Positions 10,507 to 64,000 of a DNA stretch of 64,000 bases are shown here, piece by piece. Both the position numbers and the translations under genes were made by a program. This DNA is from Trypanosoma brucei (lineage: Eukaryota). Position 1 is the stretch's first letter; each line of letters begins with the position of its first letter. The stretch is from assembly GCA_000002445.1 (NCBI GenBank), contig CP000071.1:320001-384000 (forward strand), written 5' to 3'. The notes beneath the pieces are model-generated. The model made no database searches and was not told the origin of the DNA. It saw only the letters and a list, made by a program, of their open reading frames with translations.

Positions 10507-10557
10507 GAACCGTAACTGACGGGTGCTGGCTTTCGGAGCACCCGTCAGCTACGGTTC
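10507..10557. repeat. Near-perfect hairpin/palindrome: 21-bp stem (one mismatch at 10515/10549) with a 9-nt loop, gaaccgtaactgacgggtgct-ggctttcgg-agcacccgtcagctacggttc.
   Basis: Arms paired base by base from the sequence. It lies in the intergenic region 8975..10826, in the 3' flank of the 2653-aa gene. Confidence 0.85.
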
Positions 10558-10826
10558 TCGGCACTCATTTGCAGTGAACAAGCATTACCCTCACCTGCAC
10601 TGCGCCTTTCTTGAAGCGGTTATAAACTCAACCCGTCACTCCTCATCACGTTCCTGAGTCAACACTTCTACCCCCCCCCAACAATTGCGGGGGCGACGAA
10701 ACAACGGTGGACAAGAAATAAAAAGAACCCTAAACGATAAAACAGCACCCCACCAAAACCATATAAATTCACACAATCTAATAATGGAACTCACTCACAC
10801 ATACATACACACACACGTGAAATCCG

Positions 10827-45166: not shown

Positions 45167-46222
45167 TTAGTGCCCACCACAGTGTCCGCAACACGGGCAG
45201 AAGTTAAGCACCTGATTCTCCCTCGATGTTGCCTCATCCCACTTAACATCCTCACCACTAATGAATCCCTTTAGTGGCACTAGCTCCAATCCCAGCCCAA
45301 TCCCCAGAGATGACGAAATGATCTGCACATCCTCCATCGGTTTCCCCTTCTGGTGATGATCTCCTACAAAAACAACTGGTGGCGCCGTCAACTGGGGGCC
45401 GGAGCCGCTTCCCACAGACGAGGTATCGCTGAGGCGCCTTAGCGTAGACACAAGCTCGGCAGCAGTTGAACCGACAAAGTGCACATCAACAGCGCACGAG
45501 GAGCCACTCTTCACAAAGTCACGTGCACAGAGAGTGAGATGTTCAGCTAAAAAGTCCAAACCCTCCTGCACGATGGGGTTCTTTTTCTCGCAGCCAACGA
45601 TACAATCATACGGCAACCGCACTACCACATGTTTTATTCGGTTAAACACCCCACGAAGCGAGGCATAGGCGGCCAGCCACGCCACCTCAACAGCAATCTT
45701 GGTGGCTGCTTCCTCCAGCAGAATGTACGAGACGTCTAACACAACCACCTCCCCAAAATTCACGTCCTTCGAGAGTCGGAACTGAATTAGTTCGGGTGGG
45801 AAGTAATGTGTAACAACAACTGGTGTCTGAGATGAGGTACGCGATGTTAGTTGAGTATATCCTGTCGAGCCCAGGTTTTGATCCGACTGCCTACCAGCGC
45901 TGAAACTGGAAGAAAAGAAGGTGGTGGTTACGTTTGCCTTCGGAGGAAAGATACACAAATCGTCATATACTATGTCGTACATGTTCCAGATCTCCCTCCA
46001 CACGGCACTGCACAACTGCGCGTTCACCTCCGCATTATTGTCAACATCAGGAACCTGAACACCCACATGGAAGTGAGAGAAAATCATAGGTTGGGTTTTA
46101 CCGCTCAGTGTGAAGTCCACCGCGGGTGGACGTGTGTTTGTAAGGCGAAAGCCCCGCAGATGAACCAGTAGCGCCTGCGAATTCTCTGGCGAGGCGCCAT
46201 TGCCGCGAACGCGAAGAAACAT
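45167..46222 (-). CDS. Conserved hypothetical protein (351 aa), no recognisable domain; C-terminus CPCCGHCGGH.
   Basis: ORF with an ATG start (MFLRVRG...), co-oriented with and evenly spaced from its neighbours. Confidence 0.5.
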   Translation of the reverse strand: MFLRVRGNGASPENSQALLVHLRGFRLTNTRPPAVDFTLSGKTQPMIFSHFHVGVQVPDVDNNAEVNAQLCSAVWREIWNMYDIVYDDLCIFPPKANVTTTFFSSSFSAGRQSDQNLGSTGYTQLTSRTSSQTPVVVTHYFPPELIQFRLSKDVNFGEVVVLDVSYILLEEAATKIAVEVAWLAAYASLRGVFNRIKHVVVRLPYDCIVGCEKKNPIVQEGLDFLAEHLTLCARDFVKSGSSCAVDVHFVGSTAAELVSTLRRLSDTSSVGSGSGPQLTAPPVVFVGDHHQKGKPMEDVQIISSSLGIGLGLELVPLKGFISGEDVKWDEATSRENQVLNFCPCCGHCGGH

Positions 46223-47459: not shown

Positions 47460-48488
47460 TCAGATGTTCGTGGAGTCTCGAAGCAACTCATGCTTCCTCC
47501 CCGCCACCCTTTTGGTATCTGCGTACGAAAACGCCCTCTGAGAGGCTGCGCCCCGGATTTTGACAATGTTCTCTGAGTCCCCACTTACTAAGGACTGTGA
47601 TGTCGCCCGCGATACGGGAGCGGAATGGAAATGTTGTGACACACCCTGTCCTGTGGATCCGCTGCCATTGGTGCTACGGCGGCGGTTGGCCACAGTGTTT
47701 CTACCGGTCTCTAATTCATTGGAAAAGCGATTCCCCCCTGTGGAGTTGTTGTTCTTAAAACACGAACGGATCTGCCGCGTCGGGAGACACGATGACTTGT
47801 TAATGGCGATAAACTGTTGCTCCTTCCGGTTTGCTTCCAACGGTTCGAAAGCCTGTGTGTGGACCGCCGCTACGGTTGGGCGTTGCGAAGGGGGTTGTGG
47901 CGTCCCCCGACGGCTCCTTAGGAGACCCTGCGATTCCTGTTGTAAATCCTCCCGGCGCGCAATCCGTTCCTGCTCCAACTTCTTCGTCATCTCTGCCAGC
48001 TCCGTTTCTAGCGTTTCTACCTCCTTCCGGCGCTCCTTTCTCGCCTGCTTCAGAGTAGTGTTATGAGTTGAAACGGAAGCAATGAGTTGCCGCTCACGGT
48101 CTGCCCACGTAGTGTTCTCTTCTTCTAACACAGCCTCAAAGTCCGTCCGGTCTTGTAGTCGTTTATCTCCCTCTTTGATGAAAGTTACCGTGTCGCTCAT
48201 TTTCACGTACCGTTTAACAGCCTCGTCGTGTTCTTTCTTTAGCCACTCTCTGCGCGACCGAACTTCTTCAAACTCTCGTACAGACCTATTGATTTTTGCC
48301 TCCTGCTCCTCCACGATACCGAGCAGTTCCGCCCTTTCCTTTTCCACTCTCTTGAGGTCATCATCGATTGTTTTCCTAAGTTCAATTCGGTGCTTCCTGG
48401 CGGTTTCAAGGTCGCGCTTGATCAACTCTCTCGTCTCCTCCAACTTGCCAGCGCAACTCGAAAAGGACCGCGTAAGAACCGAGGACAT
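47460..48488 (-). CDS. Coiled-coil protein (N-terminal ~200 aa highly charged heptad-rich region, C-terminal Ser/Thr/Asn-rich tail).
   Basis: Trimmed from the TTG track start to the ATG at 48488..48486 (verified). Sequence such as RELIKRDLETARKHRIELRKTIDDDLKRVEKERAELLGIVEEQEAKI is typical of a coiled coil. Confidence 0.5.
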   Translation of the reverse strand: MSSVLTRSFSSCAGKLEETRELIKRDLETARKHRIELRKTIDDDLKRVEKERAELLGIVEEQEAKINRSVREFEEVRSRREWLKKEHDEAVKRYVKMSDTVTFIKEGDKRLQDRTDFEAVLEEENTTWADRERQLIASVSTHNTTLKQARKERRKEVETLETELAEMTKKLEQERIARREDLQQESQGLLRSRRGTPQPPSQRPTVAAVHTQAFEPLEANRKEQQFIAINKSSCLPTRQIRSCFKNNNSTGGNRFSNELETGRNTVANRRRSTNGSGSTGQGVSQHFHSAPVSRATSQSLVSGDSENIVKIRGAASQRAFSYADTKRVAGRKHELLRDSTNI

Positions 48489-49464
48489 AATATAGAAGTA
48501 AAACACGTAGGTCACCAACGTAACGAAGGAACAGTGCCCGGCCCTGCTCCTGTGGCACCCCGTATATTTAAGCGAAAAAAATCTTGCTCTTCCACCTGCT
48601 TACTTTGTCAGTGGAAACGCTACAACCTAATTTAAGAAGAAGGAGTTGTTGTTGGGACGAATAAAAGTAGCAGGTTTAGAGAAAATTGGTAGCATACGCA
48701 CTGTCTCTAACCATATCTCTCTTAATGGTCTGAAGCGACCGTGTATACACCGCCGAACCGCTGACCCCTACACACGTGCGCCAATGTTGTCCTCACATGC
48801 TTTCATGCATGAAGGTCGCGGCGATGGTGAGGGAAGGAAAAGAAAGGAAAGGATTGAGTTAAAAGATGTGTCCCGCAACCGTCTAAATGCCACAAGAAAA
48901 CCCCACGGCGGAAAATGTAGGAAAAGGCAACCCTTCCTTTCAGTGCGGGTCAACGGCACATGAGAAGTCGACAAAAGTGATACAAAGAATGGTGTTTCCC
49001 AAGAATGCAAAGGCACAACAAAAGTATTTTTAATACTAGCAAGGAACAAGGGTAACAGTAAAGGAACATGTCGCAGGTTCACAGGGTCCATGATCACTAA
49101 AGTCCACAATCAACAACAGAACGAGAGTTGTAGGAAAACAAAAATTGGTCAAAAGTTTTACTCACATTATCATTATAGCATGCAGAGTCCCCAAAGGGTA
49201 AAGGAAACAGAAAAACTATATGAACCAATACTCACCCCGCACCTACCCACTGCATAACACTTACATCAAATACCAAAGTGCTCACACATTTACGTAAGTG
49301 CAAATTCCCTTCTTTCATGCCTCCGTGCAACCGAAAAAAAAAACCTCCATCACACGCAGGTTTCGTTTGCAACCACGTATATGAATTATCAACCCCCCCC
49401 TCCCCTCCGCATCCCTACACTCCCTCCTCACTCTCTTCTCTTCTCTTCTCAAACATTTCCTACA

Positions 49465-52400
49465 TCATCTAATACGTTCCTCGCACCAAGCGCTCATACG
49501 TCTCCATCCTCGCTCCCGAGGATGACTATGCCTCGACCACCAAAACTGGCTAACGCCCCGCATTGTTACATGTTCTCTCACCCTCTGCCATTGTGCCCTC
49601 GCCACCAGGCGCTGTCCAAAACGCATATAACTTCCCACATTATTCGAAGCAGAAGAATGATGCTCAACATCCTCAGCTAACTTCACGGCAATGCGACGCG
49701 CCCCCGGTTCCATGTCCTCCAGTTCAGCACCCTTTTCAAATGAGGGTTCCGACACCGGAATCAGGCGGGAAACAGAAACAAATACAAGTGTCAGCGATGC
49801 AATCAGAATCGATGCAATCCACTGTTCTGCTCTCAACGGTACACACGACATAAACTCTTTTAAGACCTCCACGGCCAAAACCTGAAAACCCACACAACAA
49901 ACCACGATAACCAAAAATGACTTTGAACGAATAAAAAGCCCTTCAAATACATTAACTTCATCATACACTTTGCGGGCATTAAACATATTAAATATGGTAA
50001 AGAAAATAAAAACGTTAAAAACAACAGTTGGAAGTTCCTTCCCCTTCGCCTTTAACCACTTACCACCATATTGGGTTAATAAAAGAACGCTAACAACCTG
50101 AACTACAGTAGCAGTCAGTATTGTCAACCACATTCGACGTGAGACAAGGGGAGCTCGGGGGGAAGACGGACCACGATTTAAGCAATCCTCTGTCGGTTGC
50201 TCCGTTGCGAGAGCGAGGGCCGCAAGTGTGTCCATAAGAAGATTTACCCATAACAGCTGTACAGTCGTTAACGGTGACATATCATGAGCAGACAAAAAAG
50301 AACCAACAAAAACAACAACAATAGAAGCAATATTAATAGAAAGTTGTAACTGCAGGAACTTGCGGATGTTGTCATTCACAGTCCGTCCCCAAACAACGGC
50401 ACGCTGGACAGAACGGAAGTTGTCGTCTAAAAGCACAATATCACCGGACTTCACCGCTATATCCGTGCCACTGCGCATCACAAAACCCACATTTGCAAGA
50501 CGCAGCGCAGGGGCGTCATTTGTCCCATCACCAGTCACAGCAACGACCTCACCACGGAGCATCAGCATCAGTACGAGCAGTTGCTTGTCCAGAGGCTGCG
50601 AACGCCCCATCACCATCATCCGGTCAAGAACAGGCCAGAACTTCTCCATGTTCGCCTCGTCACCATAAGTGTCATACACAAGGTTGCGGAAGTCCTTCCC
50701 AGTGAGCGCAAGATCACCACGCAGTCGATTGTAAATTCCACATTGCCGAGAAATTGCAACGGCTGTGTCGAGATTGTCACCCGTACACATCCTCACTGTC
50801 ACTCCCGCACGCTGGCACATTCGCACAGCATCCACAACCTCTGGACGAAGCGGGTCCTGGATGCCTAATAGTGCAAGCCACACAAATGGTCCCTCGGGTT
50901 CCTCCTCGGGAACCGCACCGTCCGTACCGATACGCCCGTATGCCACGCCGATTGTGCGATTTGCGTCCCCCGCTATTGACCGTATCTGCGCAGTGATCAT
51001 CTCAGTTACCTCCTCCGTCAGCGGCTCCTCACGACCCTCTGACGACAAGTATCGGTTGCACATGCCAAGCACACGATCAGAGCCCCCTTTCACGTACTGC
51101 ATCACAACTCCATCCGCACCTGCAACCACAGCAGTCATAAACTTCCGTTCGCTCGTAAAAGGAAAGATGGCAAAGCCACGGCTGCGGTTTGTCATGCGTA
51201 ACTTCTGGTGTGGAAGCTCCTTGTCATTACAACTACCCGGTACCGATATCAACACGCGATCCACAAAATCCAATATCGCTTGGTCAGTTTTGTTGCCCTT
51301 GTCGGTACGCCACGTCCATCGAGACAGTAAGTCAGACTCAGCTCCCACATTACCTGGTAAAAGCTCCTTCTCACTCGAACTATTCAGTGCAAGACCAAGC
51401 ATTAGTAACGACTGTGCATCACTAGACACACCCTCCAGATTAACCGTGGACGAGGGATCTCCGGGATTCGAGACACGGAACCGCCGCATCCCAATGTAAC
51501 CTTGTACCACAGTCATACGATTCTGAGTCAGCGTCCCAGTTTTATCACTACAAATCTGTGTTGCATTGCCCATTGTCTCACAAGCACACAAACGCCTCAC
51601 CTGATTATTGTCCTTCTGCATCTGGCTCTGTGAGTACGCAAGAGCAATCGTCACCGCCAACGGCAAGCCCTCTGGCACTGCGACGACAACAATCGTCACA
51701 CAAAGTAAAAAAATATCAAGAAACTTTTTTGCGCGTAACTCTTCTTTACCACGAAGAACGAGAAGGATGTAAAACAAAGAAAGCAGAGACATAAGTATCA
51801 CTGCCGCTCCAATTCCTATCCGACCAATAAACCCAGCTAATTCGTCCAATCGCTCCTGCAAGGGAGTCGCCCTCGGTTCACCGTCGAGACGAGATTCCAT
51901 TAGCAGCTTTCCACCAAAAGAAGACTCACCGACGGCGCACGCAAGAATGTAAGCATCCTCAGCCGTACTCACAACAGTCCCAGAAAGTAAGATTGGATGT
52001 TCGGCGCCTTTCTTTTTCAGATCATTCTCGCCAGTCACACTCGACTCATCAACAACAACACTCAAACCACGTACGTATAAACCATCTACAGGGATAACAA
52101 GACCCGGTGACAAGGACACAAGATCACCCACAACAATTTCTGTCACATCCACCGTAACCTTGTGACCATCACGAATGACGGAGATTGGCTGAGCAGAGTT
52201 CTCCTCCACAAGAGCACGGAATTTCAACTCCTTGCGGTAATCCTGAATAGACGATGCTGAGGTTACTGCAATCACGGCCATAAGAATGGCGGTGCCCTCT
52301 ATCCAACCTGTCTTATAGTCAACCTTCTCGTGTCCGGGTTCCGGCACAGTTAACCCGAGGATAAGCGACACACATGCGGCAAGGGTCAAAAGTATGATCA

Positions 52401-52773
52401 TGCGGTCACTCCATGCAGCTTTAAAAATCTTCCAGAATGTCAGCGGAGCCTCCTCAGGAAGCTCATTCCTCCCATACACAGCACGCCGATTCTCTACAGA
52501 AAAAGAGTCGATGCCATCTGTTATACTCGTGCCAAGTCGTTCGGCAATACCCTCAACGCCGCCAAGTTCCTCGTATAGGGGCTTAGCGTCACCGACGCAA
52601 CTGAACAAGGTGTGAAGCTCTCCCTTAATCCCTATGCCGATACGATCTTCGAGCTCCACCTCCACTGCAACGGACCCATCACTTCTGGTAAGGCCAGTGG
52701 ATAAAAACGCTTGCCTCTCTCGACCGCGGCCGGCAAGTGTACCGTAGTTCGAAGTGTCTTTTGGGGAAATCAT
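49465..52773 (-). CDS. PMCA/vacuolar-type Ca2+-transporting P-type ATPase, array copy A (1102 aa), with a C-terminal ~270 aa divergent from copies B and C.
   Basis: P-type ATPase motifs CSDKTGTLTQN (phosphorylation site), MCTGDN, GDGTNDAPAL and PEGLPLAVTIALAYS. The track start at 52776 is GTG; the ATG is at 52773..52771 (verified). The length of 1102 aa matches my recollection of one of the two T. brucei PMC proteins (TbPMC2), which is unconfirmed. Confidence 0.85.
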   Translation of the reverse strand: MISPKDTSNYGTLAGRGRERQAFLSTGLTRSDGSVAVEVELEDRIGIGIKGELHTLFSCVGDAKPLYEELGGVEGIAERLGTSITDGIDSFSVENRRAVYGRNELPEEAPLTFWKIFKAAWSDRMIILLTLAACVSLILGLTVPEPGHEKVDYKTGWIEGTAILMAVIAVTSASSIQDYRKELKFRALVEENSAQPISVIRDGHKVTVDVTEIVVGDLVSLSPGLVIPVDGLYVRGLSVVVDESSVTGENDLKKKGAEHPILLSGTVVSTAEDAYILACAVGESSFGGKLLMESRLDGEPRATPLQERLDELAGFIGRIGIGAAVILMSLLSLFYILLVLRGKEELRAKKFLDIFLLCVTIVVVAVPEGLPLAVTIALAYSQSQMQKDNNQVRRLCACETMGNATQICSDKTGTLTQNRMTVVQGYIGMRRFRVSNPGDPSSTVNLEGVSSDAQSLLMLGLALNSSSEKELLPGNVGAESDLLSRWTWRTDKGNKTDQAILDFVDRVLISVPGSCNDKELPHQKLRMTNRSRGFAIFPFTSERKFMTAVVAGADGVVMQYVKGGSDRVLGMCNRYLSSEGREEPLTEEVTEMITAQIRSIAGDANRTIGVAYGRIGTDGAVPEEEPEGPFVWLALLGIQDPLRPEVVDAVRMCQRAGVTVRMCTGDNLDTAVAISRQCGIYNRLRGDLALTGKDFRNLVYDTYGDEANMEKFWPVLDRMMVMGRSQPLDKQLLVLMLMLRGEVVAVTGDGTNDAPALRLANVGFVMRSGTDIAVKSGDIVLLDDNFRSVQRAVVWGRTVNDNIRKFLQLQLSINIASIVVVFVGSFLSAHDMSPLTTVQLLWVNLLMDTLAALALATEQPTEDCLNRGPSSPRAPLVSRRMWLTILTATVVQVVSVLLLTQYGGKWLKAKGKELPTVVFNVFIFFTIFNMFNARKVYDEVNVFEGLFIRSKSFLVIVVCCVGFQVLAVEVLKEFMSCVPLRAEQWIASILIASLTLVFVSVSRLIPVSEPSFEKGAELEDMEPGARRIAVKLAEDVEHHSSASNNVGSYMRFGQRLVARAQWQRVREHVTMRGVSQFWWSRHSHPRERGWRRMSAWCEERIR

Positions 52774-53425
52774 CACTCCCTCAAAACTTTCCCTCCCACT
52801 CGGTCACACTTCGCGCAACCAAACGTTACTTTATCCTGTACTCGCTTTGGGCCACTCAACAACAATCCAGAAATATCACCTACCTGTATCGCAAATGACA
52901 CCTAACGTTATTCTCATTATTTTTCAAAATTGCATTTGATATAATTGTTACAAGTCAATGAAGGGAAAGAAAGAGACAGGGAAAGGGAGTGACAGAAGTG
53001 TTCCTAAGTGGTTAATTGAACATGACTTTTGAGTCACGTAAGGAAAGAAAGGTGAACACAAAAGCATCCACTGGTCTTCCCCCTCCCTTTCTACACCTAA
53101 TATTCCCTAATCGGCCTCTTCCGTTAATATTACCTGCGCGTCACCGAAAGTACAGAAGGGTGAAGTGGGGCCCCTTGCACAGACGTATGCGAACTGCCGG
53201 TTCACAGGCACACCATGAAACCATTAACCTTATCCTGTTTCTTACTTCACACAACAATTTCTCTTACGCTTACTTTCAGTCCGGCTGCTTCATCCTCATG
53301 AAGAAGCAGTTATGCACTTCCGCATTACTTGGTAATATTTGGTTGTTGTTATTGCTCCCCTTCGCTTTCATTTATCACCAATGACCACAGGCTGTTCACT
53401 GTAGAGTTGCTTCTCAGGTACATAC

Positions 53426-54421
53426 CTACAGGTCACGTAGGAGTGATGAAATGAGAAGGGTACCATCGCACAGAGCCTCTAGATGCTGAGCCTGTTCCCT
53501 AAGTTGCACCAGTGCCAACATTGTGTCCACTCCACGTGCGGGGGGTACATTGTTTTCATCTCGCTGGTTTCTGGAAGTTTCCCGACTGAGTTTGCCCTCC
53601 AAATCACTTAAGTTTCGCTGTACAGACTCAAGGAGGGCAACCTTGTAATCAGCCATAGAATCAGAGTGATGTACTGTACTGTTGCTTGGCAACGGTGCGA
53701 TATCAATGCCGTTTAGGCAAAAAAGTTGATAAGCATCCACCTCCACCTCCACCTTCACCTCGCGAAGCACACCTTGCTTGGGGACCGAACACGCACGCAG
53801 AAGCCGTGCTTCTTCCTGCATCCCACTCTTCTTGTCAGTCTTTTTGGTTTTTTTGTTCTTTCTGGAAAAGTCGAGAAATGCATCCGTCGGCACGAACGCA
53901 CGAAGGTACAACTTACCCATTAGGCCGGTACGGAAGGGGTCGTAGACAAGAAGCACACTTGGGTGACCGTCAATTGCCAAGTTCGCCAACCGATCAGCTG
54001 TCACAACCGAGTAGGGATCATTCACACAAGCACTGGAAACAATGAAGTAACCTACGCTATAACTGTCTAGGCACTCCTTACGCAGCATCTCCTTTACTTT
54101 CTCGTACATCTTCTGCTGCTGTTTACTCTCGGCCGTGTCATCCCGCTCATCCTCTGCGTCACCAGAAGCTCCCAGGCTGGGAAGAACACTCGTGATGAGA
54201 ATCGTATCCCCTTGTTGAACTCCACAAAGACGTCCGCCGACGGCACTGTGGCACGTGGCATCCTGCGAGAAGCTGCCGAGATGTGTGAGGGCGGGAAATG
54301 ATATGCGAACTTTCTTCGCTGGCGGCAGTTCCACGTGAGAATCACTATCCTTCGCGAATATCGATTCGCCAGTGGGGGCGTCGTCGGAAACGACCTGAAC
54401 CTGCGGAAAACCGTGAAACAT
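53426..54421 (-). CDS. MPN (JAB/Mov34) domain protein with a C-terminal coiled-coil tail, likely translation initiation factor eIF3 subunit h; array copy 1.
   Basis: MPN-like core (GDTILITSVLPS...GYFIVSS...HPSVLLVYDP) and a C-terminal helical region. ATG at 54421 verified. The eIF3h assignment is from fold pattern and memory of a duplicated eIF3h at this locus, so it is an inference. Confidence 0.6.
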   Translation of the reverse strand: MFHGFPQVQVVSDDAPTGESIFAKDSDSHVELPPAKKVRISFPALTHLGSFSQDATCHSAVGGRLCGVQQGDTILITSVLPSLGASGDAEDERDDTAESKQQQKMYEKVKEMLRKECLDSYSVGYFIVSSACVNDPYSVVTADRLANLAIDGHPSVLLVYDPFRTGLMGKLYLRAFVPTDAFLDFSRKNKKTKKTDKKSGMQEEARLLRACSVPKQGVLREVKVEVEVDAYQLFCLNGIDIAPLPSNSTVHHSDSMADYKVALLESVQRNLSDLEGKLSRETSRNQRDENNVPPARGVDTMLALVQLREQAQHLEALCDGTLLISSLLRDL

Positions 54422-55581: not shown

Positions 55582-58500
55582 TCATACCATCCTTAATGTG
55601 TCATAAAGTTGTCGGGTGGAGCCCCGTTTCATATCGCGATCCGTCCATGCGCGGCGGAATGCATTAACAACACGAGGTTTCTTCACATGCTCTGCCTGAA
55701 GTCTACGCCACCGCGACTGCGCACGCAACCGACCCGCAAGAAGCGAAGAGGCGTCACTTGTCCCGTCCGTCTCCCGCTGCCTCTGCTCCGCAGCCACCGA
55801 AACATCTTTGATGAGGCGAGAGGCACTACCGTCGACATTTCTACTATCTGGTATCAGTGCAAACACAGGTTCCCTGATGCTCACCACCCGGCTCAAAATA
55901 CCCACAACAAGTGAAATGGCAGCAATACCGATACTTACACCCCATTGCTTGATCGAAAGGGGACGGACACCCATAAAGTCGTTAAAGGTGCAGATGGCCA
56001 ACACTTGAAACGCAATGCACGAACCGACGACAACAATAAAAAATACCGACCGACCCATCCCTTCAAACACATTAAGTTCTCGGTACAATTTGCGACAATT
56101 TAACATGTGGAATATAGTGCCGAAAACAAAAACGTTGAATAGAAATGTTCGGTGCAAATGCTTGCCATTCTCATCCTCCCCAAAATACTTTCCACCAAAC
56201 GTGAGCACAGAAAAGAAAGCAGTTAGCTGAACTGTGGCAACGGAAAAAATTGTGAACCACATTCGACGTGAGACAAGGGGAGCTCGGGGGGAAGACGGAC
56301 CACGATTTAAGCAATCCTCTGTCGGTTGCTCCGTTGCGAGAGCAGGGGCCGCAAGTGTGTCCATAAGAAGATTTACCCATAACAGCTGTACAGTCGTTAA
56401 CGGTGAAGACTTACCCTCCCTCACGAGGGTACCTACGACGGTTAATGAAAAACACACCAAATTCACCGTGAACTGTAACTGCAGGAACTTGCGGATGTTG
56501 TCATTCACAGTCCGCCCCCAAACAACGGCACGCTGGACGGAACGGAAGTTGTCGTCTAAAAGCACAATATCACCGGACTTCACCGCTATATCCGTGCCAC
56601 TGCGCATCACAAAACCCACATTTGCAAGACGCAGCGCAGGGGCGTCATTTGTCCCATCACCAGTCACAGCAACGACCTCACCACGGAGCATCAGCATCAG
56701 TACGAGCAGTTGCTTGTCCAGAGGCTGCGAACGCCCCATCACCATCATCCGGTCAAGAACAGGCCAGAACTTCTCCATGTTCGCCTCGTCACCATAAGTG
56801 TCATACACAAGGTTGCGGAAGTCCTTCCCAGTGAGCGCAAGATCACCACGCAGTCGATTGTAAATTCCACATTGCCGAGAAATTGCAACGGCTGTGTCGA
56901 GATTGTCACCCGTACACATCCTCACTGTCACTCCCGCACGCTGGCACATTCGCACAGCATCCACAACCTCTGGACGAAGCGGGTCCTGGATGCCTAATAG
57001 TGCAAGCCACACAAATGGTCCCTCGGGTTCCTCCTCGGGAACCGCACCGTCCGTACCGATACGCCCGTATGCCACGCCGATTGTGCGATTTGCGTCCCCC
57101 GCTATTGACCGTATCTGCTCAGTGATCATCTCAGTTACCTCCTCCGTCAGCGGCTCCTCACGACCCTCTGACGACAAGTATCGGTTGCACATGCCAAGCA
57201 CACGATCAGAGCCCCCTTTCACGTACTGCATCACAACTCCATCCGCACCTGCAACCACAGCAGTCATAAACTTCCGTTCGCTCGTAAAAGGAAAGATGGC
57301 AAAGCCACGGCTGCAGTTTGTCATGCGTAACTTCTGGTGTGGAAGCTCCTTGTCATTACAACTACCCGGTACCGATATCAACACGCGATCCACAAAATCC
57401 AATATCGCTTGGTCAGTTTTGTTGCCCTTGTCGGTACGCCACGTCCATCGAGACAGTAAGTCAGACTCAGCTCCCACATTACCTGGTAAAAGCTCCTTCT
57501 CACTCGAACTATTCAGTGCAAGACCAAGCATTAGTAACGACTGTGCATCACTAGACACACCCTCCAGATTAACCGTGGACGAGGGATCTCCGGGATTCGA
57601 GACACGGAACCGCCGCATCCCAATGTAACCTTGTACCACAGTCATACGATTCTGAGTCAGCGTCCCAGTTTTATCACTGCAAATCTGTGTTGCATTGCCC
57701 ATTGTCTCACAAGCACACAAACGCCTCACCTGATTATTGTCCTTCTGCATCTGGCTCTGTGAGTACGCAAGAGCAATCGTCACCACCAATGGCAAGCCCT
57801 CTGGCACTGCAATAACAACAATCGTCACACAAAGTAGGAGAAAGTTCAGGAACTTCTTCGGGTAAAATTGTTGTTTGTTTGTAGCAATTCGCTCAATTTC
57901 GATGATACAAAGTACTATGAAAAAAAGAACGGCGGATATAATTGCAACTCGAGCGATGAAGCTAACTAAGTTTTGCGACCGCTCCTGCAAGGGAGTCGCC
58001 CTCGGTTCACCGTCGAGACGAGATTCCATTAGCAGCTTTCCACCAAAAGAAGACTCACCGACGGCGCACGCAAGAATGTAAGCATCCTCAGCCGTACTCA
58101 CAACAGTCCCAGAAAGTAAGATTGGATGTTCGGCGCCTTTCTTTTTCAGATCATTCTCGCCAGTCACACTCGACTCATCAACAACAACACTCAAACCACG
58201 TACGTATAAACCATCTACAGGGATAACAAGACCCGGTGACAAGGACACAAGATCACCCACAACAATTTCTGTCACATCCACCGTAACCTTGTGACCATCA
58301 CGAATGACGGAGATTGGCTGAGCAGAGTTCTCCTCCACAAGAGCACGGAATTTCAACTCCTTGCGGTAATCCTGAATAGACGATGCTGAGGTTACTGCAA
58401 TCACGGCCATAAGAATGGCGGTGCCCTCTATCCAACCTGTCTTATAGTCAACCTTCTCGTGTCCGGGTTCCGGCACAGTTAACCCGAGGATAAGCGACAC

Positions 58501-58902
58501 ACATGCGGCAAGGGTCAAAAGTATGATCATGCGGTCACTCCATGCAGTTTTAAAAATCTTCCAGAATGTCAGCGGAGCCTCCTCAGGAAGCTCATTCCTC
58601 CCATACACAGCACGCCGATTCTCTACAGAAAAAGAGTCGATGCCATCTGTTATACTCGTGCCAAGTCGTTCGGCAATACCCTCAACGCCGCCAAGTTCCT
58701 CGTATAGGGGCTTAGCGTCACCGACGCAACTGAACAAGGTGTGAAGCTCTCCCTTAATCCCTATGCCGATACGATCTTCGAGCTCCACCTCCACTGCAAC
58801 GGACCCATCACTTCTGGTAAGGCCAGTGGATAAAAACGCTTGCTTCTCTCGACCGCGGCCGGCAAGTGTACCGTAGTTCGAAGTGTCTTTTGGGGAAATC
58901 AT
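55582..58902 (-). CDS. PMCA/vacuolar-type Ca2+-transporting P-type ATPase, array copy B (1106 aa).
   Basis: Same P-type motifs as copy A. ATG at 58902..58900 (verified; the track start at 58905 is GTG). Nearly identical to copy A over about two thirds of its length, but with a different TM3/TM4 patch and C-terminal region. The length of 1106 aa matches my recollection of TbPMC1, which is unconfirmed. Confidence 0.85.
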   Translation of the reverse strand: MISPKDTSNYGTLAGRGREKQAFLSTGLTRSDGSVAVEVELEDRIGIGIKGELHTLFSCVGDAKPLYEELGGVEGIAERLGTSITDGIDSFSVENRRAVYGRNELPEEAPLTFWKIFKTAWSDRMIILLTLAACVSLILGLTVPEPGHEKVDYKTGWIEGTAILMAVIAVTSASSIQDYRKELKFRALVEENSAQPISVIRDGHKVTVDVTEIVVGDLVSLSPGLVIPVDGLYVRGLSVVVDESSVTGENDLKKKGAEHPILLSGTVVSTAEDAYILACAVGESSFGGKLLMESRLDGEPRATPLQERSQNLVSFIARVAIISAVLFFIVLCIIEIERIATNKQQFYPKKFLNFLLLCVTIVVIAVPEGLPLVVTIALAYSQSQMQKDNNQVRRLCACETMGNATQICSDKTGTLTQNRMTVVQGYIGMRRFRVSNPGDPSSTVNLEGVSSDAQSLLMLGLALNSSSEKELLPGNVGAESDLLSRWTWRTDKGNKTDQAILDFVDRVLISVPGSCNDKELPHQKLRMTNCSRGFAIFPFTSERKFMTAVVAGADGVVMQYVKGGSDRVLGMCNRYLSSEGREEPLTEEVTEMITEQIRSIAGDANRTIGVAYGRIGTDGAVPEEEPEGPFVWLALLGIQDPLRPEVVDAVRMCQRAGVTVRMCTGDNLDTAVAISRQCGIYNRLRGDLALTGKDFRNLVYDTYGDEANMEKFWPVLDRMMVMGRSQPLDKQLLVLMLMLRGEVVAVTGDGTNDAPALRLANVGFVMRSGTDIAVKSGDIVLLDDNFRSVQRAVVWGRTVNDNIRKFLQLQFTVNLVCFSLTVVGTLVREGKSSPLTTVQLLWVNLLMDTLAAPALATEQPTEDCLNRGPSSPRAPLVSRRMWFTIFSVATVQLTAFFSVLTFGGKYFGEDENGKHLHRTFLFNVFVFGTIFHMLNCRKLYRELNVFEGMGRSVFFIVVVGSCIAFQVLAICTFNDFMGVRPLSIKQWGVSIGIAAISLVVGILSRVVSIREPVFALIPDSRNVDGSASRLIKDVSVAAEQRQRETDGTSDASSLLAGRLRAQSRWRRLQAEHVKKPRVVNAFRRAWTDRDMKRGSTRQLYDTLRMV

Positions 58903-59554
58903 CACTCCCTCAAAACTTTCCCTCCCACTCGGTCACACTTCGCGCAACCAAACGTTACTTTATCCTGTACTCGCTTTGGGCCACTCAACAACAATCCAGA
59001 AATATCACCTACCTGTATCGCAAATGACACCTAACGTTATTCTCATTATTTTTCAAAACTGCATTTGATATAATTGTTACAAGTCAATGAAGGGAAAGAA
59101 AGAGACAGGGAAAGGGAGTGACAGAAGTGTTCCTAAGTGGTTAATTGAACATGACTTTTGAGTCACGTAAGGAAAGAAAGGTGAACACAAAAGCATCCAC
59201 TGGTCTTCCCCCTCCCTTTCTACACCTAATATTCCCTAATCGGCCTCTTCCGTTAATATTACCTGCGCGTCACCGAAAGTACAGAAGGGTGAAGTGGGGC
59301 CCCTTGCACAGACGTATGCGAACTGCCGGTTCACAGGCACACCATGAAACCATTAACCTTATCCTGTTTCTTACTTCACACAACAATTTCTCTTACGCTT
59401 ACTTTCAGTCCGGCTGCTTCATCCTCATGAAGAAGCAGTTATGCACTTCCGCATTACTTGGTAATATTTGGTTGTTGTTATTGCTCCCCTTCGCTTTCAT
59501 TTATCACCAATGACCACAGGCTGTTCACTGTAGAGTTGCTTCTCAGGTACATAC

Positions 59555-60550
59555 CTACAGGTCACGTAGGAGTGATGAAATGAGAAGGGTACCATCGCAC
59601 AGAGCCTCTAGATGCTGAGCCTGTTCCCTAAGTTGCACCAGTGCCAACATTGTGTCCACTCCACGTGCGGGGGGTACATTGTTTTCATCTCGCTGGTTTC
59701 TGGAAGTTTCCCGACTGAGTTTGCCCTCCAAATCACTTAAGTTTCGCTGTACAGACTCAAGGAGGGCAACCTTGTAATCAGCCATAGAATCAGAGTGATG
59801 TACTGTACTGTTGCTTGGCAACGGTGCGATATCAATGCCGTTTAGGCAAAAAAGTTGATAAGCATCCACCTCCACCTCCACCTTCACCTCGCGAAGCACA
59901 CCTTGCTTGGGGACCGAACACGCACGCAGAAGCCGTGCTTCTTCCTGCATCCCACTCTTCTTGTCAGTCTTTTTGGTTTTTTTGTTCTTTCTGGAAAAGT
60001 CGAGAAATGCATCCGTCGGCACGAACGCACGAAGGTACAACTTACCCATTAGGCCGGTACGGAAGGGGTCGTAGACAAGAAGCACACTTGGGTGACCGTC
60101 AATTGCCAAGTTCGCCAACCGATCAGCTGTCACAACCGAGTAGGGATCATTCACACAAGCACTGGAAACAATGAAGTAACCTACGCTATAACTGTCTAGG
60201 CACTCCTTACGCAGCATCTCCTTTACTTTCTCGTACATCTTCTGCTGCTGTTTACTCTCGGCCGTGTCATCCCGCTCATCCTCTGCGTCACCAGAAGCTC
60301 CCAGGCTGGGAAGAACACTCGTGATGAGAATCGTATCCCCTTGTTGAACTCCACAAAGACGTCCGCCGACGGCACTGTGGCACGTGGCATCCTGCGAGAA
60401 GCTGCCGAGATGTGTGAGGGCGGGAAATGATATGCGAACTTTCTTCGCTGGCGGCAGTTCCACGTGAGAATCACTATCCTTCGCGAATATCGATTCGCCA
60501 GTGGGGGCGTCGTCGGAAACGACCTGAACCTGCGGAAAACCGTGAAACAT
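59555..60550 (-). CDS. MPN-domain protein (eIF3h-like), array copy 2, with protein identical to 53426..54421.
   Basis: Identical 331-aa translation. ATG at 60550 verified. The longer overlapping ORF 60223..60729(-) is in another frame and is an artefact. Confidence 0.6.
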   Translation of the reverse strand: MFHGFPQVQVVSDDAPTGESIFAKDSDSHVELPPAKKVRISFPALTHLGSFSQDATCHSAVGGRLCGVQQGDTILITSVLPSLGASGDAEDERDDTAESKQQQKMYEKVKEMLRKECLDSYSVGYFIVSSACVNDPYSVVTADRLANLAIDGHPSVLLVYDPFRTGLMGKLYLRAFVPTDAFLDFSRKNKKTKKTDKKSGMQEEARLLRACSVPKQGVLREVKVEVEVDAYQLFCLNGIDIAPLPSNSTVHHSDSMADYKVALLESVQRNLSDLEGKLSRETSRNQRDENNVPPARGVDTMLALVQLREQAQHLEALCDGTLLISSLLRDL

Positions 60551-61715: not shown

Positions 61716-64000
61716 TCATACCATCCTTAATGTGTCATAAAGTTGTCGGGTGGAGCCCCGTTTCATATCGCGATCCGTCCATGCGCGGCGGAATGCATTA
61801 ACAACACGAGGTTTCTTCACATGCTCTGCCTGAAGTCTACGCCACCGCGACTGCGCACGCAACCGACCCGCAAGAAGCGAAGAGGCGTCACTTGTCCCGT
61901 CCGTCTCCCGCTGCCTCTGCTCCGCAGCCACCGAAACATCTTTGATGAGGCGAGAGGCACTACCGTCGACATTTCTACTATCTGGTATCAGTGCAAACAC
62001 AGGTTCCCTGATGCTCACCACCCGGCTCAAAATACCCACAACAAGTGAAATGGCAGCAATACCGATACTTACACCCCATTGCTTGATCGAAAGGGGACGG
62101 ACACCCATAAAGTCGTTAAAGGTGCAGATGGCCAACACTTGAAACGCAATGCACGAACCGACGACAACAATAAAAAATACCGACCGACCCATCCCTTCAA
62201 ACACATTAAGTTCTCGGTACAATTTGCGACAATTTAACATGTGGAATATAGTGCCGAAAACAAAAACGTTGAATAGAAATGTTCGGTGCAAATGCTTGCC
62301 ATTCTCATCCTCCCCAAAATACTTTCCACCAAACGTGAGCACAGAAAAGAAAGCAGTTAGCTGAACTGTGGCAACGGAAAAAATTGTGAACCACATTCGA
62401 CGTGAGACAAGGGGAGCTCGGGGGGAAGACGGACCACGATTTAAGCAATCCTCTGTCGGTTGCTCCGTTGCGAGAGCGAGCGCCGCAAGTGTGTCCATAA
62501 GAAGATTTACCCATAACAGCTGTACAGTCGTTAACGGTGAAGACTTACCCTCCCTCACGAGGGTACCTACAACAGTTACTAGAAAAGAAACAACGTTCAC
62601 GGTTAATTGCAGCTGCAGGAACTTGCGGATGTTGTCATTCACAGTCCGCCCCCAAACAACGGCACGCTGGACAGAACGGAAGTTGTCGTCTAAAAGCACA
62701 ATATCACCGGACTTCACCGCTATATCCGTGCCACTGCGCATCACAAAACCCACATTTGCAAGACGCAGCGCAGGGGCGTCATTTGTCCCATCACCAGTCA
62801 CAGCAACGACCTCACCACGGAGCATCAGCATCAGTACGAGCAGTTGCTTGTCCAGAGGCTGCGAACGCCCCATCACCATCATCCGGTCAAGAACAGGCCA
62901 GAACTTCTCCATGTTCGCCTCGTCACCATAAGTGTCATACACAAGGTTGCGGAAGTCCTTCCCAGTGAGCGCAAGATCACCACGCAGTCGATTGTAAATT
63001 CCACATTGCCGAGAAATTGCAACGGCTGTGTCGAGATTGTCACCCGTACACATCCTCACTGTCACTCCCGCACGCTGGCACATTCGCACAGCATCCACAA
63101 CCTCTGGACGAAGCGGGTCCTGGATGCCTAATAGTGCAAGCCACACAAATGGTCCCTCGGGTTCCTCCTCGGGAACCGCACCGTCCGTACCGATACGCCC
63201 GTATGCCACGCCGATTGTGCGATTTGCGTCCCCCGCTATTGACCGTATCTGCTCAGTGATCATCTCAGTTACCTCCTCCGTCAGCGGCTCCTCACGACCC
63301 TCTGACGACAAGTATCGGTTGCACATGCCAAGCACACGATCAGAGCCCCCTTTCACGTACTGCATCACAACTCCATCCGCACCTGCAACCACAGCAGTCA
63401 TAAACTTCCGTTCGCTCGTAAAAGGAAAGATGGCAAAGCCACGGCTGCGGTTTGTCATGCGTAACTTCTGGTGTGGAAGCTCCTTGTCATTACAACTACC
63501 CGGTACCGATATCAACACGCGATCCACAAAATCCAATATCGCTTGGTCAGTTTTGTTGCCCTTGTCGGTACGCCACGTCCATCGAGACAGTAAGTCAGAC
63601 TCAGCTCCCACATTACCTGGTAAAAGCTCCTTCTCACTCGAACTATTCAGTGCAAGACCAAGCATTAGTAACGACTGTGCATCACTAGACACACCCTCCA
63701 GATTAACCGTGGACGAGGGATCTCCGGGATTCGAGACACGGAACCGCCGCATCCCAATGTAACCTTGTACCACAGTCATACGATTCTGAGTCAGCGTCCC
63801 AGTTTTATCACTGCAAATCTGTGTTGCATTGCCCATTGTCTCACAAGCACACAAACGCCTCACCTGATTATTGTCCTTCTGCATCTGGTTCTGTGAGTAC
63901 GCAAGAGCAATCGTCACCGCCAACGGCAAGCCCTCTGGCACTGCGACGACAACAATCGTCACACAAAGTAGGAGAAAGTTCAGGAACTTCTTCGGGTAAA
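61716..64000 (-). CDS. PMCA/vacuolar-type Ca2+-ATPase, array copy C, 5'-truncated by the window edge (the N-terminal about 350 codons lie beyond 64000).
   Basis: The reading frame is open to the window end. The track's M at 63962 is an internal GTG, not a start. The C-terminal region matches copy B, and an internal segment around 63900..63960 matches copy A. Confidence 0.8.
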   Translation of the reverse strand, partial: YPKKFLNFLLLCVTIVVVAVPEGLPLAVTIALAYSQNQMQKDNNQVRRLCACETMGNATQICSDKTGTLTQNRMTVVQGYIGMRRFRVSNPGDPSSTVNLEGVSSDAQSLLMLGLALNSSSEKELLPGNVGAESDLLSRWTWRTDKGNKTDQAILDFVDRVLISVPGSCNDKELPHQKLRMTNRSRGFAIFPFTSERKFMTAVVAGADGVVMQYVKGGSDRVLGMCNRYLSSEGREEPLTEEVTEMITEQIRSIAGDANRTIGVAYGRIGTDGAVPEEEPEGPFVWLALLGIQDPLRPEVVDAVRMCQRAGVTVRMCTGDNLDTAVAISRQCGIYNRLRGDLALTGKDFRNLVYDTYGDEANMEKFWPVLDRMMVMGRSQPLDKQLLVLMLMLRGEVVAVTGDGTNDAPALRLANVGFVMRSGTDIAVKSGDIVLLDDNFRSVQRAVVWGRTVNDNIRKFLQLQLTVNVVSFLVTVVGTLVREGKSSPLTTVQLLWVNLLMDTLAALALATEQPTEDCLNRGPSSPRAPLVSRRMWFTIFSVATVQLTAFFSVLTFGGKYFGEDENGKHLHRTFLFNVFVFGTIFHMLNCRKLYRELNVFEGMGRSVFFIVVVGSCIAFQVLAICTFNDFMGVRPLSIKQWGVSIGIAAISLVVGILSRVVSIREPVFALIPDSRNVDGSASRLIKDVSVAAEQRQRETDGTSDASSLLAGRLRAQSRWRRLQAEHVKKPRVVNAFRRAWTDRDMKRGSTRQLYDTLRMV

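What the first reader, a model, noticed from the sequence alone, without database searches (positions are those of the whole stretch)
50126..50277. 152-bp island of identity embedded in the otherwise divergent 3' end of ATPase copy A
Below ~50345 copy A diverges from copies B and C, through the stop codon and 3' flank. However 50126..50277 is almost identical to 56255..56407 and to the matching stretch in copy C. It encodes [49 protein letters not shown], found in all three proteins. A conserved block flanked by divergent sequence in-frame suggests patchy gene conversion, or strong selection on this transmembrane/loop segment. There is one internal micro-difference, cgag/cagg/cgagcgcc, across the three copies.
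Basis: seen in the sequence. Interest (0 to 1): 0.6.

Follow-up and report, generated by a model that had tools for sequence, protein, structure and literature searches.

The report
Gene-conversion island in trypanosome calcium-pump genes
Three neighbouring calcium-pump genes of Trypanosoma brucei share a 152-base stretch (the calcium-binding membrane helix 6 and the loop after it) that is kept identical by copying between the genes, while the sequence on both sides has drifted far apart; this is a clear but ordinary example of a process already known in this parasite.

Summary
Copy A 50126..50277 equals copy B 56255..56406 (2 mismatches) and copy C 62389..62540 (1 mismatch). The flanks are about 40-50% identical.

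The window is T. brucei TREU927 chromosome 8. A is Tb927.8.1160, B is TbPMC1 and C is TbPMC2, all PMCA-type Ca2+-ATPases. The island encodes TM6, with the Ca2+-binding Asn and Asp, plus the L6-7 loop.

Protein-level selection alone cannot explain the identity:
- None of 45 degenerate codons differs in the island, against 41 of 77 conserved residues in the flanks (p = 2e-11).
- Between T. brucei and T. congolense the same island is only 63% identical.

In trees, the core and the island group by species, while TM7-10 groups by paralogue type. That is concerted evolution by gene conversion.

The island's 3' edge matches, within 2-13 nt, the edge of the homogenised region in the T. vivax, Leishmania donovani and Leptomonas pairs. 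It is therefore an old, conserved boundary. The 5' edge is a 66-nt divergent TM5 patch seen here only in T. brucei. In copy A, 20 of that patch's 22 codons end in T, which is unexplained.

Mosaic concerted evolution of T. brucei tandem arrays is already described, and this array is catalogued. The finding is real and cleanly explained, with modest novelty.

The parts
50126..50277 (-). Identity island in copy A (Tb927.8.1160). Codons for S833-W882: TM6 ([26 protein letters not shown]) plus the cytosolic L6-7 loop ([24 protein letters not shown]).
   Evidence: Boundaries and mismatch positions. Synonymous-site test. Alignment to human PMCA1 6A69 residues ~880-928, including N891 and D895.
56255..56406 (-). 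The same island in copy B (TbPMC1, Tb927.8.1180). It carries the B-specific CTC->CCT (Leu->Pro) at 56344/56345.
   Evidence: The Pro variant is also present in the independent clones Q8I920, Q8I919 and Q7Z1N8.
62389..62540 (-). The same island in copy C (TbPMC2, Tb927.8.1200). One silent difference from A (GCG vs GCC).
50278..50343 (-). Divergent TM5 patch of copy A (LSINIASIVVVFVGSFLSAHDM), forming the 5' edge of the island. It is 39% nt identical to B, and 20 of its 22 codons end in T.
49465..50125 (-). Type I C-terminal module of copy A (TM7-TM10, cytosolic tail and stop codon), forming the 3' edge of the island. About 50% nt and 34% aa identical to B/C.
   Evidence: It groups with T. congolense P0035 at 91% bootstrap.
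50344..51711 (-). Homogenised core of copy A (TM4, the phosphorylation and nucleotide-binding domains, up to FLQLQ). 99% identical to B.
51712..51849 (-). Divergent TM3 patch of copy A. 51% nt and 30% aa identical to B.
   Evidence: This patch reassorts between copies and strains.
51850..52773 (-). N-terminal third of copy A (long 'YGT' N-terminus, A-domain, TM1-2). 99.7% identical to B.
55582..58902 (-). Copy B, TbPMC1 (1106 aa). Exact match to Q57VN6.
61716..64000 (-). Copy C, TbPMC2; its 5' end lies beyond the window. From the second half of TM5 through the 3' flank it is identical to B apart from three differences inside the island (B 56344, 56345, 56347).
53426..54421 (-). Conserved 331-aa gene between B and A. 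A second copy lies at 59555..60550 between C and B. It is part of the ~6.13-kb repeat unit.
   Evidence: Orthologous to the gene between the two ATPases in T. vivax (44% identity, 1e-96) and L. donovani (33% identity, 9e-54).

Best explanation
The window holds the T. brucei chromosome-8 array of PMCA-type Ca2+-ATPase genes, transcribed from high to low coordinates: C (TbPMC2), a 331-aa gene, B (TbPMC1), a second copy of the 331-aa gene, then A (Tb927.8.1160).

The array descends from an old tandem pair. The upstream 'type II' gene and the downstream 'type I' gene are separated by the same small gene in Trypanosoma and in Leishmania.

In every lineage examined, interlocus gene conversion (concerted evolution) keeps about 2.4 kb of the coding sequence nearly identical between the paralogues. 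This homogenised region ends a few bases after the codon for the last residue of the L6-7 loop (SRRMW/H). The TM7-TM10 and C-tail modules beyond that point stay distinct.

The 152-nt island is the last stretch of this homogenised region. It encodes TM6, with the Ca2+-coordinating Asn and Asp, and the L6-7 loop. It looks like an island only because, in T. brucei, the 66 nt encoding TM5 just upstream (and a ~140-nt TM3 patch further up) are not homogenised between A and B/C.

What is shown:
- nucleotide identity including synonymous sites;
- free synonymous change of the same codons between species;
- opposite tree topologies on the two sides of the 3' edge;
- the same 3' edge in four lineages;
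- modules reassorted among copies and strains.

What is inferred:
- The transfers are non-reciprocal conversions. TM5 type and tail type stay linked, so a single crossover cannot explain the identity between them; short tracts confined to the island are needed.
- Tracts stop at the edges because the flanks are too diverged to pair, and/or because converted TM5 or TM7-10 variants are selected against.
For: Gene identity. A is an exact match to Q57VN8 and B to Q57VN6, both from TREU927. Pfam domains and the best PDB matches, PMCA1 and PMCA2, agree. The literature names and localises TbPMC1 and TbPMC2 (PMC6884021).

Island statistics.
- Boundaries, and run length against 100,000 permutations.
- 0 of 45 synonymous codon differences in the island against 41 of 77 in the flanks, p = 2.4e-11.

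No constraint at nucleotide level. The T. brucei and T. congolense islands are 63% identical, and 26 of 34 conserved degenerate codons differ. Inter-species island identity is 0.63-0.75, against 0.98-0.99 among the T. brucei paralogues.

Incongruent trees.
- Core and island: paralogues group by species with 99-100% bootstrap.
- TM7-10: A groups with T. congolense type I (91%). The L. donovani and Leptomonas downstream copies group together (100%), and so do their upstream copies (100%).

Conserved 3' edge. Paralogue identity ends 2, 9, 8 and 13 nt after the SRRM[W/H] codon in T. brucei, T. vivax, L. donovani and Leptomonas, then falls to about 40%.

Conserved synteny. The order is type II, then a 33x-aa gene, then type I.

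Ongoing exchange.
- The N-terminal and TM3 modules reassort among copies and strains. For example, the T. equiperdum OVI type I gene carries the B/C-type TM3.
- TM5 type is always linked to tail type.

Not an assembly artefact. The same TM5 / island / tail mosaic is present in the independent T. b. gambiense and T. b. equiperdum assemblies.

General precedent. Mosaics and concerted evolution in T. brucei tandem arrays are described in PMC1855330 and PMC2854126.
Against: - No conversion event is observed directly, and directionality is unknown.
- 152 bp is a short substrate for independent conversion. I did not measure whether T. brucei recombination works efficiently at that length; my recollection of published substrate-length work is not a test.
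- The age of the TM5 patch is unresolved. T. congolense and T. vivax have homogenised TM5. The patch may therefore be a recent local rewrite rather than an old protected segment, in which case no island-only conversion is needed.
- The NJ tree does not join Leishmaniinae and Trypanosoma tails by type. A single duplication before their split rests on gene order, the N-terminal YGT motif and a one-residue indel, not on the tree.
Confidence: 0.85

Rival explanations
1. The island was never converted on its own. The core and the island formed one continuous homogenised tract, as they do in T. vivax, Leishmania and T. congolense. The 66-nt TM5 segment was then rewritten recently and locally in T. 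brucei, either by codon-repeat slippage or low-complexity remodelling, or by a short patch copied from an unidentified diverged donor. Concerted evolution would still explain the identity. Only the way the island became isolated would differ.
For: - TM5 is homogenised between paralogues in T. vivax, L. donovani and Leptomonas, and nearly so in T. congolense.
- Copy A's patch has an extreme composition. Twenty of 22 codons are NNT, whereas no other of 12,223 22-codon windows exceeds 15. It also contains GTT/ATT/TCT codon runs and a weak tandem-repeat signal.
- B and C are 99% identical elsewhere, yet 15 of their 26 differences sit within 42 nt of the same helix. TM5 is therefore a local hotspot of change.
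Against: - No donor was found; the patch is unique in the window.
- A and B/C patches show no nucleotide similarity above chance, even allowing gaps.
- The A patch still reads as an ordinary group-1 TM5, 50% aa identical to T. vivax. That fits slow in-place divergence as well as a rewrite.
- The A-type patch is identical in the T. b. gambiense DNA and, at protein level, in the two equiperdum type I sequences, so it is not very recent.
Confidence: 0.3
2. The block is identical only because purifying selection on the Ca2+-binding helix TM6 and the L6-7 loop forbids change. No recombination is involved.
For: TM6 is highly conserved in protein sequence from Bodo to Trypanosoma, and aligns with the Ca2+-site helix of human PMCA1.
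Against: - Every synonymous site is identical (0 of 45), whereas conserved residues in the flanks use different codons in 41 of 77 cases.
- The same codons differ freely between species: 26 of 34 conserved degenerate codons, 63% nt identity.
- The loop carries T. brucei-specific residues (GPSSPRAP) shared by all three paralogues.
- There is no RNA structure signal (z = +0.97) and no Rfam match.
Confidence: 0.02
3. The mosaic is an assembly artefact: reads from near-identical repeats were stitched into chimeric copies.
For: - Repeat arrays are hard to assemble.
- The single T. b. gambiense gene (C-like 5' end plus A-like 3' end) is flagged in PMC2854126 as a case where reads of the missing isoform exist but were left unassembled.
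Against: - The TM5 patch, the island and the start of TM7 span under 300 nt, within one Sanger read.
- The same arrangement occurs in TREU927, T. b. gambiense, T. b. equiperdum and T. equiperdum OVI, and in independent cDNA or gene clones.
- All copies are intact, in-frame ORFs.
Confidence: 0.02

Closest known systems
Concerted evolution and sequence mosaics in T. brucei tandem gene arrays (Jackson 2007, PMC1855330; Jackson et al. 2010, PMC2854126)
   Same: Same organism and same process. Tandem duplicates are homogenised by gene conversion, with discrete variant blocks and copies that differ between strains. This array is listed as array 65 in Table S3 of PMC1855330 and as Tbg972.8.740 in Table 1 of PMC2854126.
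   Different: I found nothing in either paper describing this array's internal block structure, though I only term-searched the main text and supplements of PMC1855330 and read passages of PMC2854126. Not found there: the TM6 island, the TM3 and TM5 patches, and the conserved edge at TM7. Jackson 2007 lists only two repeats, so the diverged copy A was apparently not counted.
TbPMC1 / TbPMC2 (Luo et al. 2004, as summarised in PMC6884021)
   Same: B and C are these characterised genes. TbPMC1 is in acidocalcisomes and TbPMC2 is in the plasma membrane. Both complement yeast pmc1 mutants.
   Different: Copy A (TB4b, Tb927.8.1160) carries the divergent TM3, TM5 and TM7-10 and is listed there as uncharacterised. 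A search of the review found no occurrence of the terms gene conversion, recombination, mosaic or chimer-.
Tandem PMCA pairs of Leishmania (LM3/LM4), Leptomonas and T. vivax
   Same: Same gene order (type II, a 33x-aa gene, type I). The same near-100% identical core ends within 2-13 nt of the same codon. The N-termini and the TM7-10 tails are divergent.
   Different: In those species TM3 and TM5 lie inside the homogenised region, so TM6 is not an island. T. brucei also has a third, hybrid copy: B combines a type I N-terminus with a type II tail.
Classic bounded gene conversion between tandem paralogues, e.g. the human fetal G-gamma/A-gamma globin genes (from my own knowledge, not tested here)
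   Same: Paralogues are identical over a defined tract with a sharp boundary, beyond which they are old and divergent.
   Different: Here the boundary lies inside a coding region at a helix junction. It is conserved across genera, and the converted region is interrupted by short unconverted patches.

Membership tests
PMCA-type (P2B) Ca2+-ATPase | P-type ATPase domain set: Cation_ATPase_N, E1-E2_ATPase, Hydrolase/Cation_ATPase and Cation_ATPase_C. | tested here: met
   Pfam hits above the curated cut-offs for copy A.
PMCA-type (P2B) Ca2+-ATPase | Catalytic DKTGT phosphorylation motif, the TM4 PEGL motif, and the TM6 Asn and Asp Ca2+ ligands. | tested here: met
   CSDKTGTLT, VPEGLP and WVNLLMD can be read in A, B and C. 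The TM6 Asn and Asp align to N891 and D895 of human PMCA1 6A69. The role of those residues as ligands is from my own knowledge.
PMCA-type (P2B) Ca2+-ATPase | Closest solved structures are PMCAs rather than SERCA or SPCA. | tested here: met
   PMCA1 scores 9.6e-47 and PMCA2 3.5e-46, against about 1e-16 to 1e-17 for SPCA and SERCA. A is an exact match to Q57VN8 and B to Q57VN6.
PMCA-type (P2B) Ca2+-ATPase | Ca2+ transport activity. | not testable with these tools
   Reported for TbPMC1 and TbPMC2 by yeast complementation (PMC6884021). Copy A is listed there as uncharacterised.
Interlocus gene conversion / concerted evolution | Paralogues within a species are more alike than orthologues between species. 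| tested here: met
   Core and island group by species at 99-100% bootstrap. Identity is 0.98-0.99 within T. brucei, against 0.63-0.75 between species.
Interlocus gene conversion / concerted evolution | Identity includes synonymous sites and exceeds what protein constraint gives. | tested here: met
   0 of 45 against 41 of 77, p = 2.4e-11. 26 of 34 conserved degenerate codons differ between species.
Interlocus gene conversion / concerted evolution | Discrete tract with sharp edges, and adjacent segments giving incongruent phylogenies. | tested here: met
   Edges at 50278 and 50125, with a run-length permutation test. The island tree and the TM7-10 tree disagree.
Interlocus gene conversion / concerted evolution | Non-reciprocal transfer, as opposed to double crossover or unequal exchange, shown directly. 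| not testable with these tools
   Only inferred, from the persistent linkage of TM5 type with tail type on either side of the shared island.
Interlocus gene conversion / concerted evolution | Significant result in a standard breakpoint program (GENECONV, RDP or GARD). | not tested
   These programs were not available. A Sawyer-style permutation of mismatch positions was used instead.
Block conserved by purifying selection alone | Synonymous divergence in the block is comparable to that in the flanks. | tested here: not met

The most novel reading that the evidence does not exclude
The unconverted helices (TM3, TM5, TM7-10) may form a co-adapted, isoform-specific membrane scaffold. Selection would keep this scaffold together against gene conversion. 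The ion-binding helices TM4 and TM6 and all cytosolic domains would meanwhile be shared freely among the copies.

The conversion edge at the TM6/TM7 junction would then be a functionally enforced module boundary that has held at least since Trypanosoma and Leishmania diverged.

The NNT-only TM5 patch of copy A would be a selected U-rich feature, for example one that slows translation during membrane insertion or acts as an RNA signal, rather than mutational noise.
Probability: 0.15. Interest if true: 0.5.

Novelty: new member of a known kind. Interest (0 to 1): 0.3.

Why it matters
The finding gives a base-resolution map of which parts of the three T. brucei PMCA pumps are interchangeable and which are isoform-specific.
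- Interchangeable: the cytosolic domains, TM1-2, TM4 and TM6.
- Isoform-specific: the N-terminus, TM3, TM5, TM7-10 and the tail.

This has three practical uses.
- It guides domain-swap experiments on targeting (acidocalcisome versus plasma membrane) and on the uncharacterised Tb927.8.1160.
- It warns that primers, RNAi fragments or CRISPR guides placed in the core or the island will hit all copies.
- It explains why trees built from different gene segments disagree.

The conserved conversion edge across genera is a tidy example of how ancient paralogue-specific modules survive inside a concertedly evolving gene. It does not change current understanding of gene conversion or of trypanosome Ca2+ handling.

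Tried and rejected
- Frameshift and compensating frameshift as the cause of the TM5 and TM3 patches. Gapped local alignments of the A and B/C patch DNA score no better than shuffles. Rejected.
- A functional RNA or DNA element in the island. There is no Rfam hit. The fold is no more stable than shuffles, z = +0.97. Synonymous sites change freely between species. Rejected.
- A donor for A's TM5 patch inside the window. The patch is unique, even allowing 3 mismatches.
- The genes downstream of A (47460..48518 and 45167..46222) as diverged copies of the 331-aa repeat-unit gene. There is no similarity, so A is the end of the array.
- Homologue search with only the C-terminal 303 aa. It returned only fragments and missed the full-length T. 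brucei proteins. The full-length query was needed.
- T. congolense type I gene (P0035) DNA. It is not on record, so only the B-like T. congolense gene (L006) could be compared at nucleotide level.
- The primary TbPMC1/TbPMC2 paper (Luo et al. 2004) is not held. I relied on the review PMC6884021.
- The first Biopython bootstrap run timed out. It was replaced by a custom Kimura-distance NJ bootstrap.
- The other T. brucei PMCA (Tb927.10.11620) as an ectopic donor for the TM3 and TM5 patches. Its sequence was never retrieved, so this is untested.
- T. b. gambiense's single chimeric gene as the reciprocal product of an unequal crossover. PMC2854126 reports unassembled reads of the other isoform, so assembly collapse is the likelier reading.
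Full report
WHAT IS THERE

The 3' third of the window carries three P-type ATPase ORFs on the - strand:
- A, 49465..52776
- B, 55582..58905
- C, 61716 to beyond the window end

An exact-sequence look-up identifies A as Q57VN8 / XP_846953 (Tb927.8.1160, 'TB4b', 1102 aa). B is Q57VN6 (Tb927.8.1180, TbPMC1, 1106 aa). C corresponds to D6XMU9 (Tb927.8.1200, TbPMC2, 1080 aa). All are from Trypanosoma brucei brucei TREU927 chromosome 8.

According to the review PMC6884021, TbPMC1 is acidocalcisomal and TbPMC2 is in the plasma membrane. Both complement yeast Ca2+-pump mutants. TB4b is listed there as uncharacterised.

Copy A has the full Pfam domain set of a P-type ATPase. Its TM5-TM10 region matches human PMCA1 (6A69, 9.6e-47) and PMCA2 far better than SERCA or SPCA.

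THE OBSERVATION

A nucleotide alignment of the three copies divides the gene into blocks:

| Block (copy A coordinates) | Content | A vs B nt identity |
|---|---|---|
| 51850..52773 | N-terminal third | 99.7% |
| 51712..51849 | TM3 patch | 51% |
| 50344..51711 | Core | 99% |
| 50278..50343 | TM5 patch | 39% |
| 50126..50277 | Island | 98.7% |
| below 50126 | TM7 to stop, then 3' flank | ~50%, then unalignable |

- The last upstream mismatch is at 50278 and the first downstream mismatch is at 50125.
The C counterpart is 62389..62540.
- A and B differ at two adjacent bases inside the island (CTC->CCT, Leu->Pro in B). A and C differ at one silent base.
- From TM5 to the stop codon there are 929 aligned sites with 422-429 differences. 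The longest identical run is 89-92 nt. The maximum in 100,000 permutations was 30 nt.

WHAT THE ISLAND ENCODES

The island encodes residues S833-W882: [26 protein letters not shown] (TM6) followed by [24 protein letters not shown] (the cytosolic L6-7 loop). The Asn and Asp of WVNLLMD align with N891 and D895 of human PMCA1. From my own knowledge, these are the TM6 Ca2+ ligands of PMCAs.

WHY SELECTION ALONE DOES NOT EXPLAIN IT

- Among codons whose amino acid is the same in A and B and which have synonymous alternatives, 0 of 45 differ in the island. In the TM5 and TM7-to-end flanks, 41 of 77 differ (Fisher p = 2.4e-11). Third-position identity is 0.98 in the island and 0.27-0.37 in the flanks.
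- The island is not constrained at nucleotide level. Against the T. congolense B-like gene (L006) it is 63% identical, and 26 of 34 conserved degenerate codons differ. Between species, island identity is 0.63-0.75.
- The loop carries T. brucei-specific residues (GPSSPRAP) shared by A, B and C.
- There is no Rfam hit, and the fold is no more stable than shuffled sequence.

CONCERTED EVOLUTION, WITH AN OLD 3' EDGE

I fetched the orthologous loci.

In L. donovani (L001), Leptomonas pyrrhocoris (L003) and T. vivax (L005), two PMCA genes flank a 332-335-aa gene. That gene is orthologous to the 331-aa ORF lying between the T. brucei copies: 44% identity and 1e-96 against T. vivax, 33% and 9e-54 against L. 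donovani.

In all three species the two paralogues are about 100% identical at nucleotide level from about codon 50-80 up to '...SRRM(W/H)'. Identity then drops to about 40%. The identity ends 2, 9, 8 and 13 nt after that codon in T. brucei, T. vivax, L. donovani and Leptomonas respectively.

Bootstrapped NJ trees:
- For the core and for the island, paralogues group by species (99-100%).
- For TM7-TM10, they group by type. A groups with T. congolense P0035 (91%). The L. donovani and Leptomonas downstream copies group together (100%), as do their upstream copies (100%).

The downstream ('type I') copies also share a long N-terminus with an S/x-YG-T/S motif and an extra residue in EG(L/I)xxRS. 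The upstream ('type II') copies lack both (read).

So the pair is old, the core is repeatedly homogenised within each lineage, and the island's 3' edge is the conserved end of that homogenised region.

The NJ tree does not unite Trypanosoma and Leishmaniinae tails by type. A single duplication before their split therefore rests on gene order and on these signatures, not on the tree.

THE 5' EDGE WAS SEEN ONLY IN T. BRUCEI

TM3 and TM5 lie inside the homogenised region in T. vivax, Leishmania and Leptomonas. TM5 is nearly homogenised in T. congolense, with 3 of 22 residues differing.

In T. brucei there are three TM5 haplotypes:
- A: LSINIASIVVVFVGSFLSAHDM
- B: FTVNLVCFSLTVVGTLVREGKS
- C: LTVNVVSFLVTVVGTLVREGKS

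The A and B/C patches share no nucleotide similarity above chance, even with gaps.

Across eleven T. brucei-group sequences, the N-terminal and TM3 modules reassort among copies and strains. For example, the T. equiperdum OVI type I gene carries the B/C-type TM3. TM5 type, however, is always linked to tail type.

Because the shared island sits between two linked, type-specific blocks, a single crossover cannot explain it. Two possibilities remain:
- Short non-crossover tracts confined to about 152 nt keep the island homogenised.
- TM5 was rewritten recently inside a tract that had been continuous (rival 1).

I cannot decide between these two.

ARRAY HISTORY

B combines a type I N-terminus, 100% identical to A over the first 900 nt, with a type II tail that is 100% identical to C. 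This is what unequal crossing-over between an ancestral type II / type I pair would produce. T. congolense has the same three architectures: P0035 is A-like, P0153 is B-like and P0154 is C-like.

Copy number differs among assemblies: 3 in TREU927, 2 in T. b. equiperdum (L007) and 1 in T. b. gambiense (L004). For the gambiense locus, PMC2854126 states that reads of the missing isoform exist but were left unassembled, so that single chimeric gene is probably an assembly collapse.

Even so, the gambiense and equiperdum assemblies both show the same A-type TM5 / shared island / A-type tail order at 98-100% identity. This rules out a TREU927 assembly artefact.

AN UNEXPLAINED DETAIL

In copy A's TM5 patch, 20 of 22 codons end in T (T3 0.91, GC3 0.09), against T3 of about 0.3 in the rest of the gene. 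No other 22-codon window in the 15 long ORFs of the window exceeds 15 of 22, out of 12,223 windows tested. The patch is identical in T. b. gambiense. It is absent from the TM5 of B, T. vivax, Leishmania and Leptomonas.

The patch contains GTT, ATT and TCT codon runs and gives a weak tandem-repeat signal. Codon-repeat slippage is therefore a candidate cause, but I have no test of it.

COMPARISON WITH WHAT IS KNOWN

Mosaic concerted evolution of T. brucei tandem arrays was described by Jackson 2007 (PMC1855330) and again in the T. b. gambiense genome paper (PMC2854126). This array is listed in both, as array 65 and as Tbg972.8.740.

The internal structure did not turn up in the parts of those papers that I searched, nor in term searches of the P-type ATPase review. 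That structure is the TM6 island, the TM3 and TM5 patches, and the conserved edge at the TM6/TM7 junction.

VERDICT

The 'patchy gene conversion' reading is supported, and 'selection only' is refuted. The phenomenon is a well-resolved new instance of a known kind. Interest is modest (0.3).

Noticed in passing
window 50278..50343 (- strand): In copy A's TM5 patch, 20 of 22 codons end in T (GC3 0.09). This is the most extreme of 12,223 22-codon windows in the 15 long ORFs of the window; the next highest is 15 of 22. It is identical in T. b. gambiense and absent from other species' TM5. It contains GTT/ATT/TCT codon runs. The cause is unknown.
   Followed up: partly
window 56437..56478 (B) vs 62571..62612 (C): B and C show only 26 differences over about 3.2 kb. 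Fifteen of them cluster in 42 nt encoding the first half of TM5, and five more cluster in TM4 (B 57785..57814), where C equals A. TM5 looks like a local hotspot of variation among all three copies.
   Followed up: partly
window 56344..56345 (B); A equivalent 50215..50216: B has Pro instead of the otherwise invariant Leu in TM6 (AAPALATE). The same Pro is present in the independent clones Q8I920, Q8I919 and Q7Z1N8. The review reports that TbPMC1 and TbPMC2 complement yeast mutants, so the variant is probably real and tolerated.
   Followed up: partly
window ~49507 (copy A, 3' end of the CDS): Relative to T. b. gambiense and T. b. equiperdum, TREU927 copy A lacks 7 nt (AGCGAGA, within a GAGCGAG direct repeat). 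The frameshift changes the last ~11 residues: ...ERGWRRMSAWCEERIR instead of ...ERGARMETYGRLVRGTY. The latter resembles the T. congolense C-terminus. T. equiperdum OVI shares the TREU927 version.
   Followed up: partly
window 55582..58902 (B), compared with A and C; T. congolense proteins P0035, P0153, P0154: B (TbPMC1) is a hybrid: a type I N-terminus, identical to A, joined to a type II tail, identical to C. This is what unequal crossing-over would produce. T. congolense has the same three architectures, so the three-gene array may predate the brucei/congolense split.
   Followed up: partly
T. congolense L006 1268..4612 (P0153), and P0154: The T. congolense type II copies carry substitutions in normally invariant P-type ATPase motifs. 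DKTGT is DKTGM or DMTGM, the TM6 NLLMD is NLLNE, and TGDN is TGDD. This suggests altered or lost pump function.
   Followed up: no
L004 (T. b. gambiense) 10001..13234: The single annotated gambiense gene has a C-like 5' end and TM3 joined to an A-like TM5, island and tail. PMC2854126 Table 1 marks this locus as one where reads of the missing isoform were found unassembled, so it is probably a collapsed array.
   Followed up: yes
T. equiperdum OVI protein P0159 (SCU68942): This type I copy (A-type TM5 and tail) carries the B/C-type TM3 patch, unlike TREU927 copy A. That is direct evidence that the TM3 patch moves between copies within the T. brucei group.
   Followed up: partly
window 47460..48518 and 45167..46222 (- strand): The two ORFs downstream of copy A have no Pfam match and are not related to the 331-aa gene of the repeat unit. 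Their order (a 342-aa gene, a 351-aa gene, then a large Metallophos protein) is conserved in T. b. gambiense and T. b. equiperdum.
   Followed up: partly
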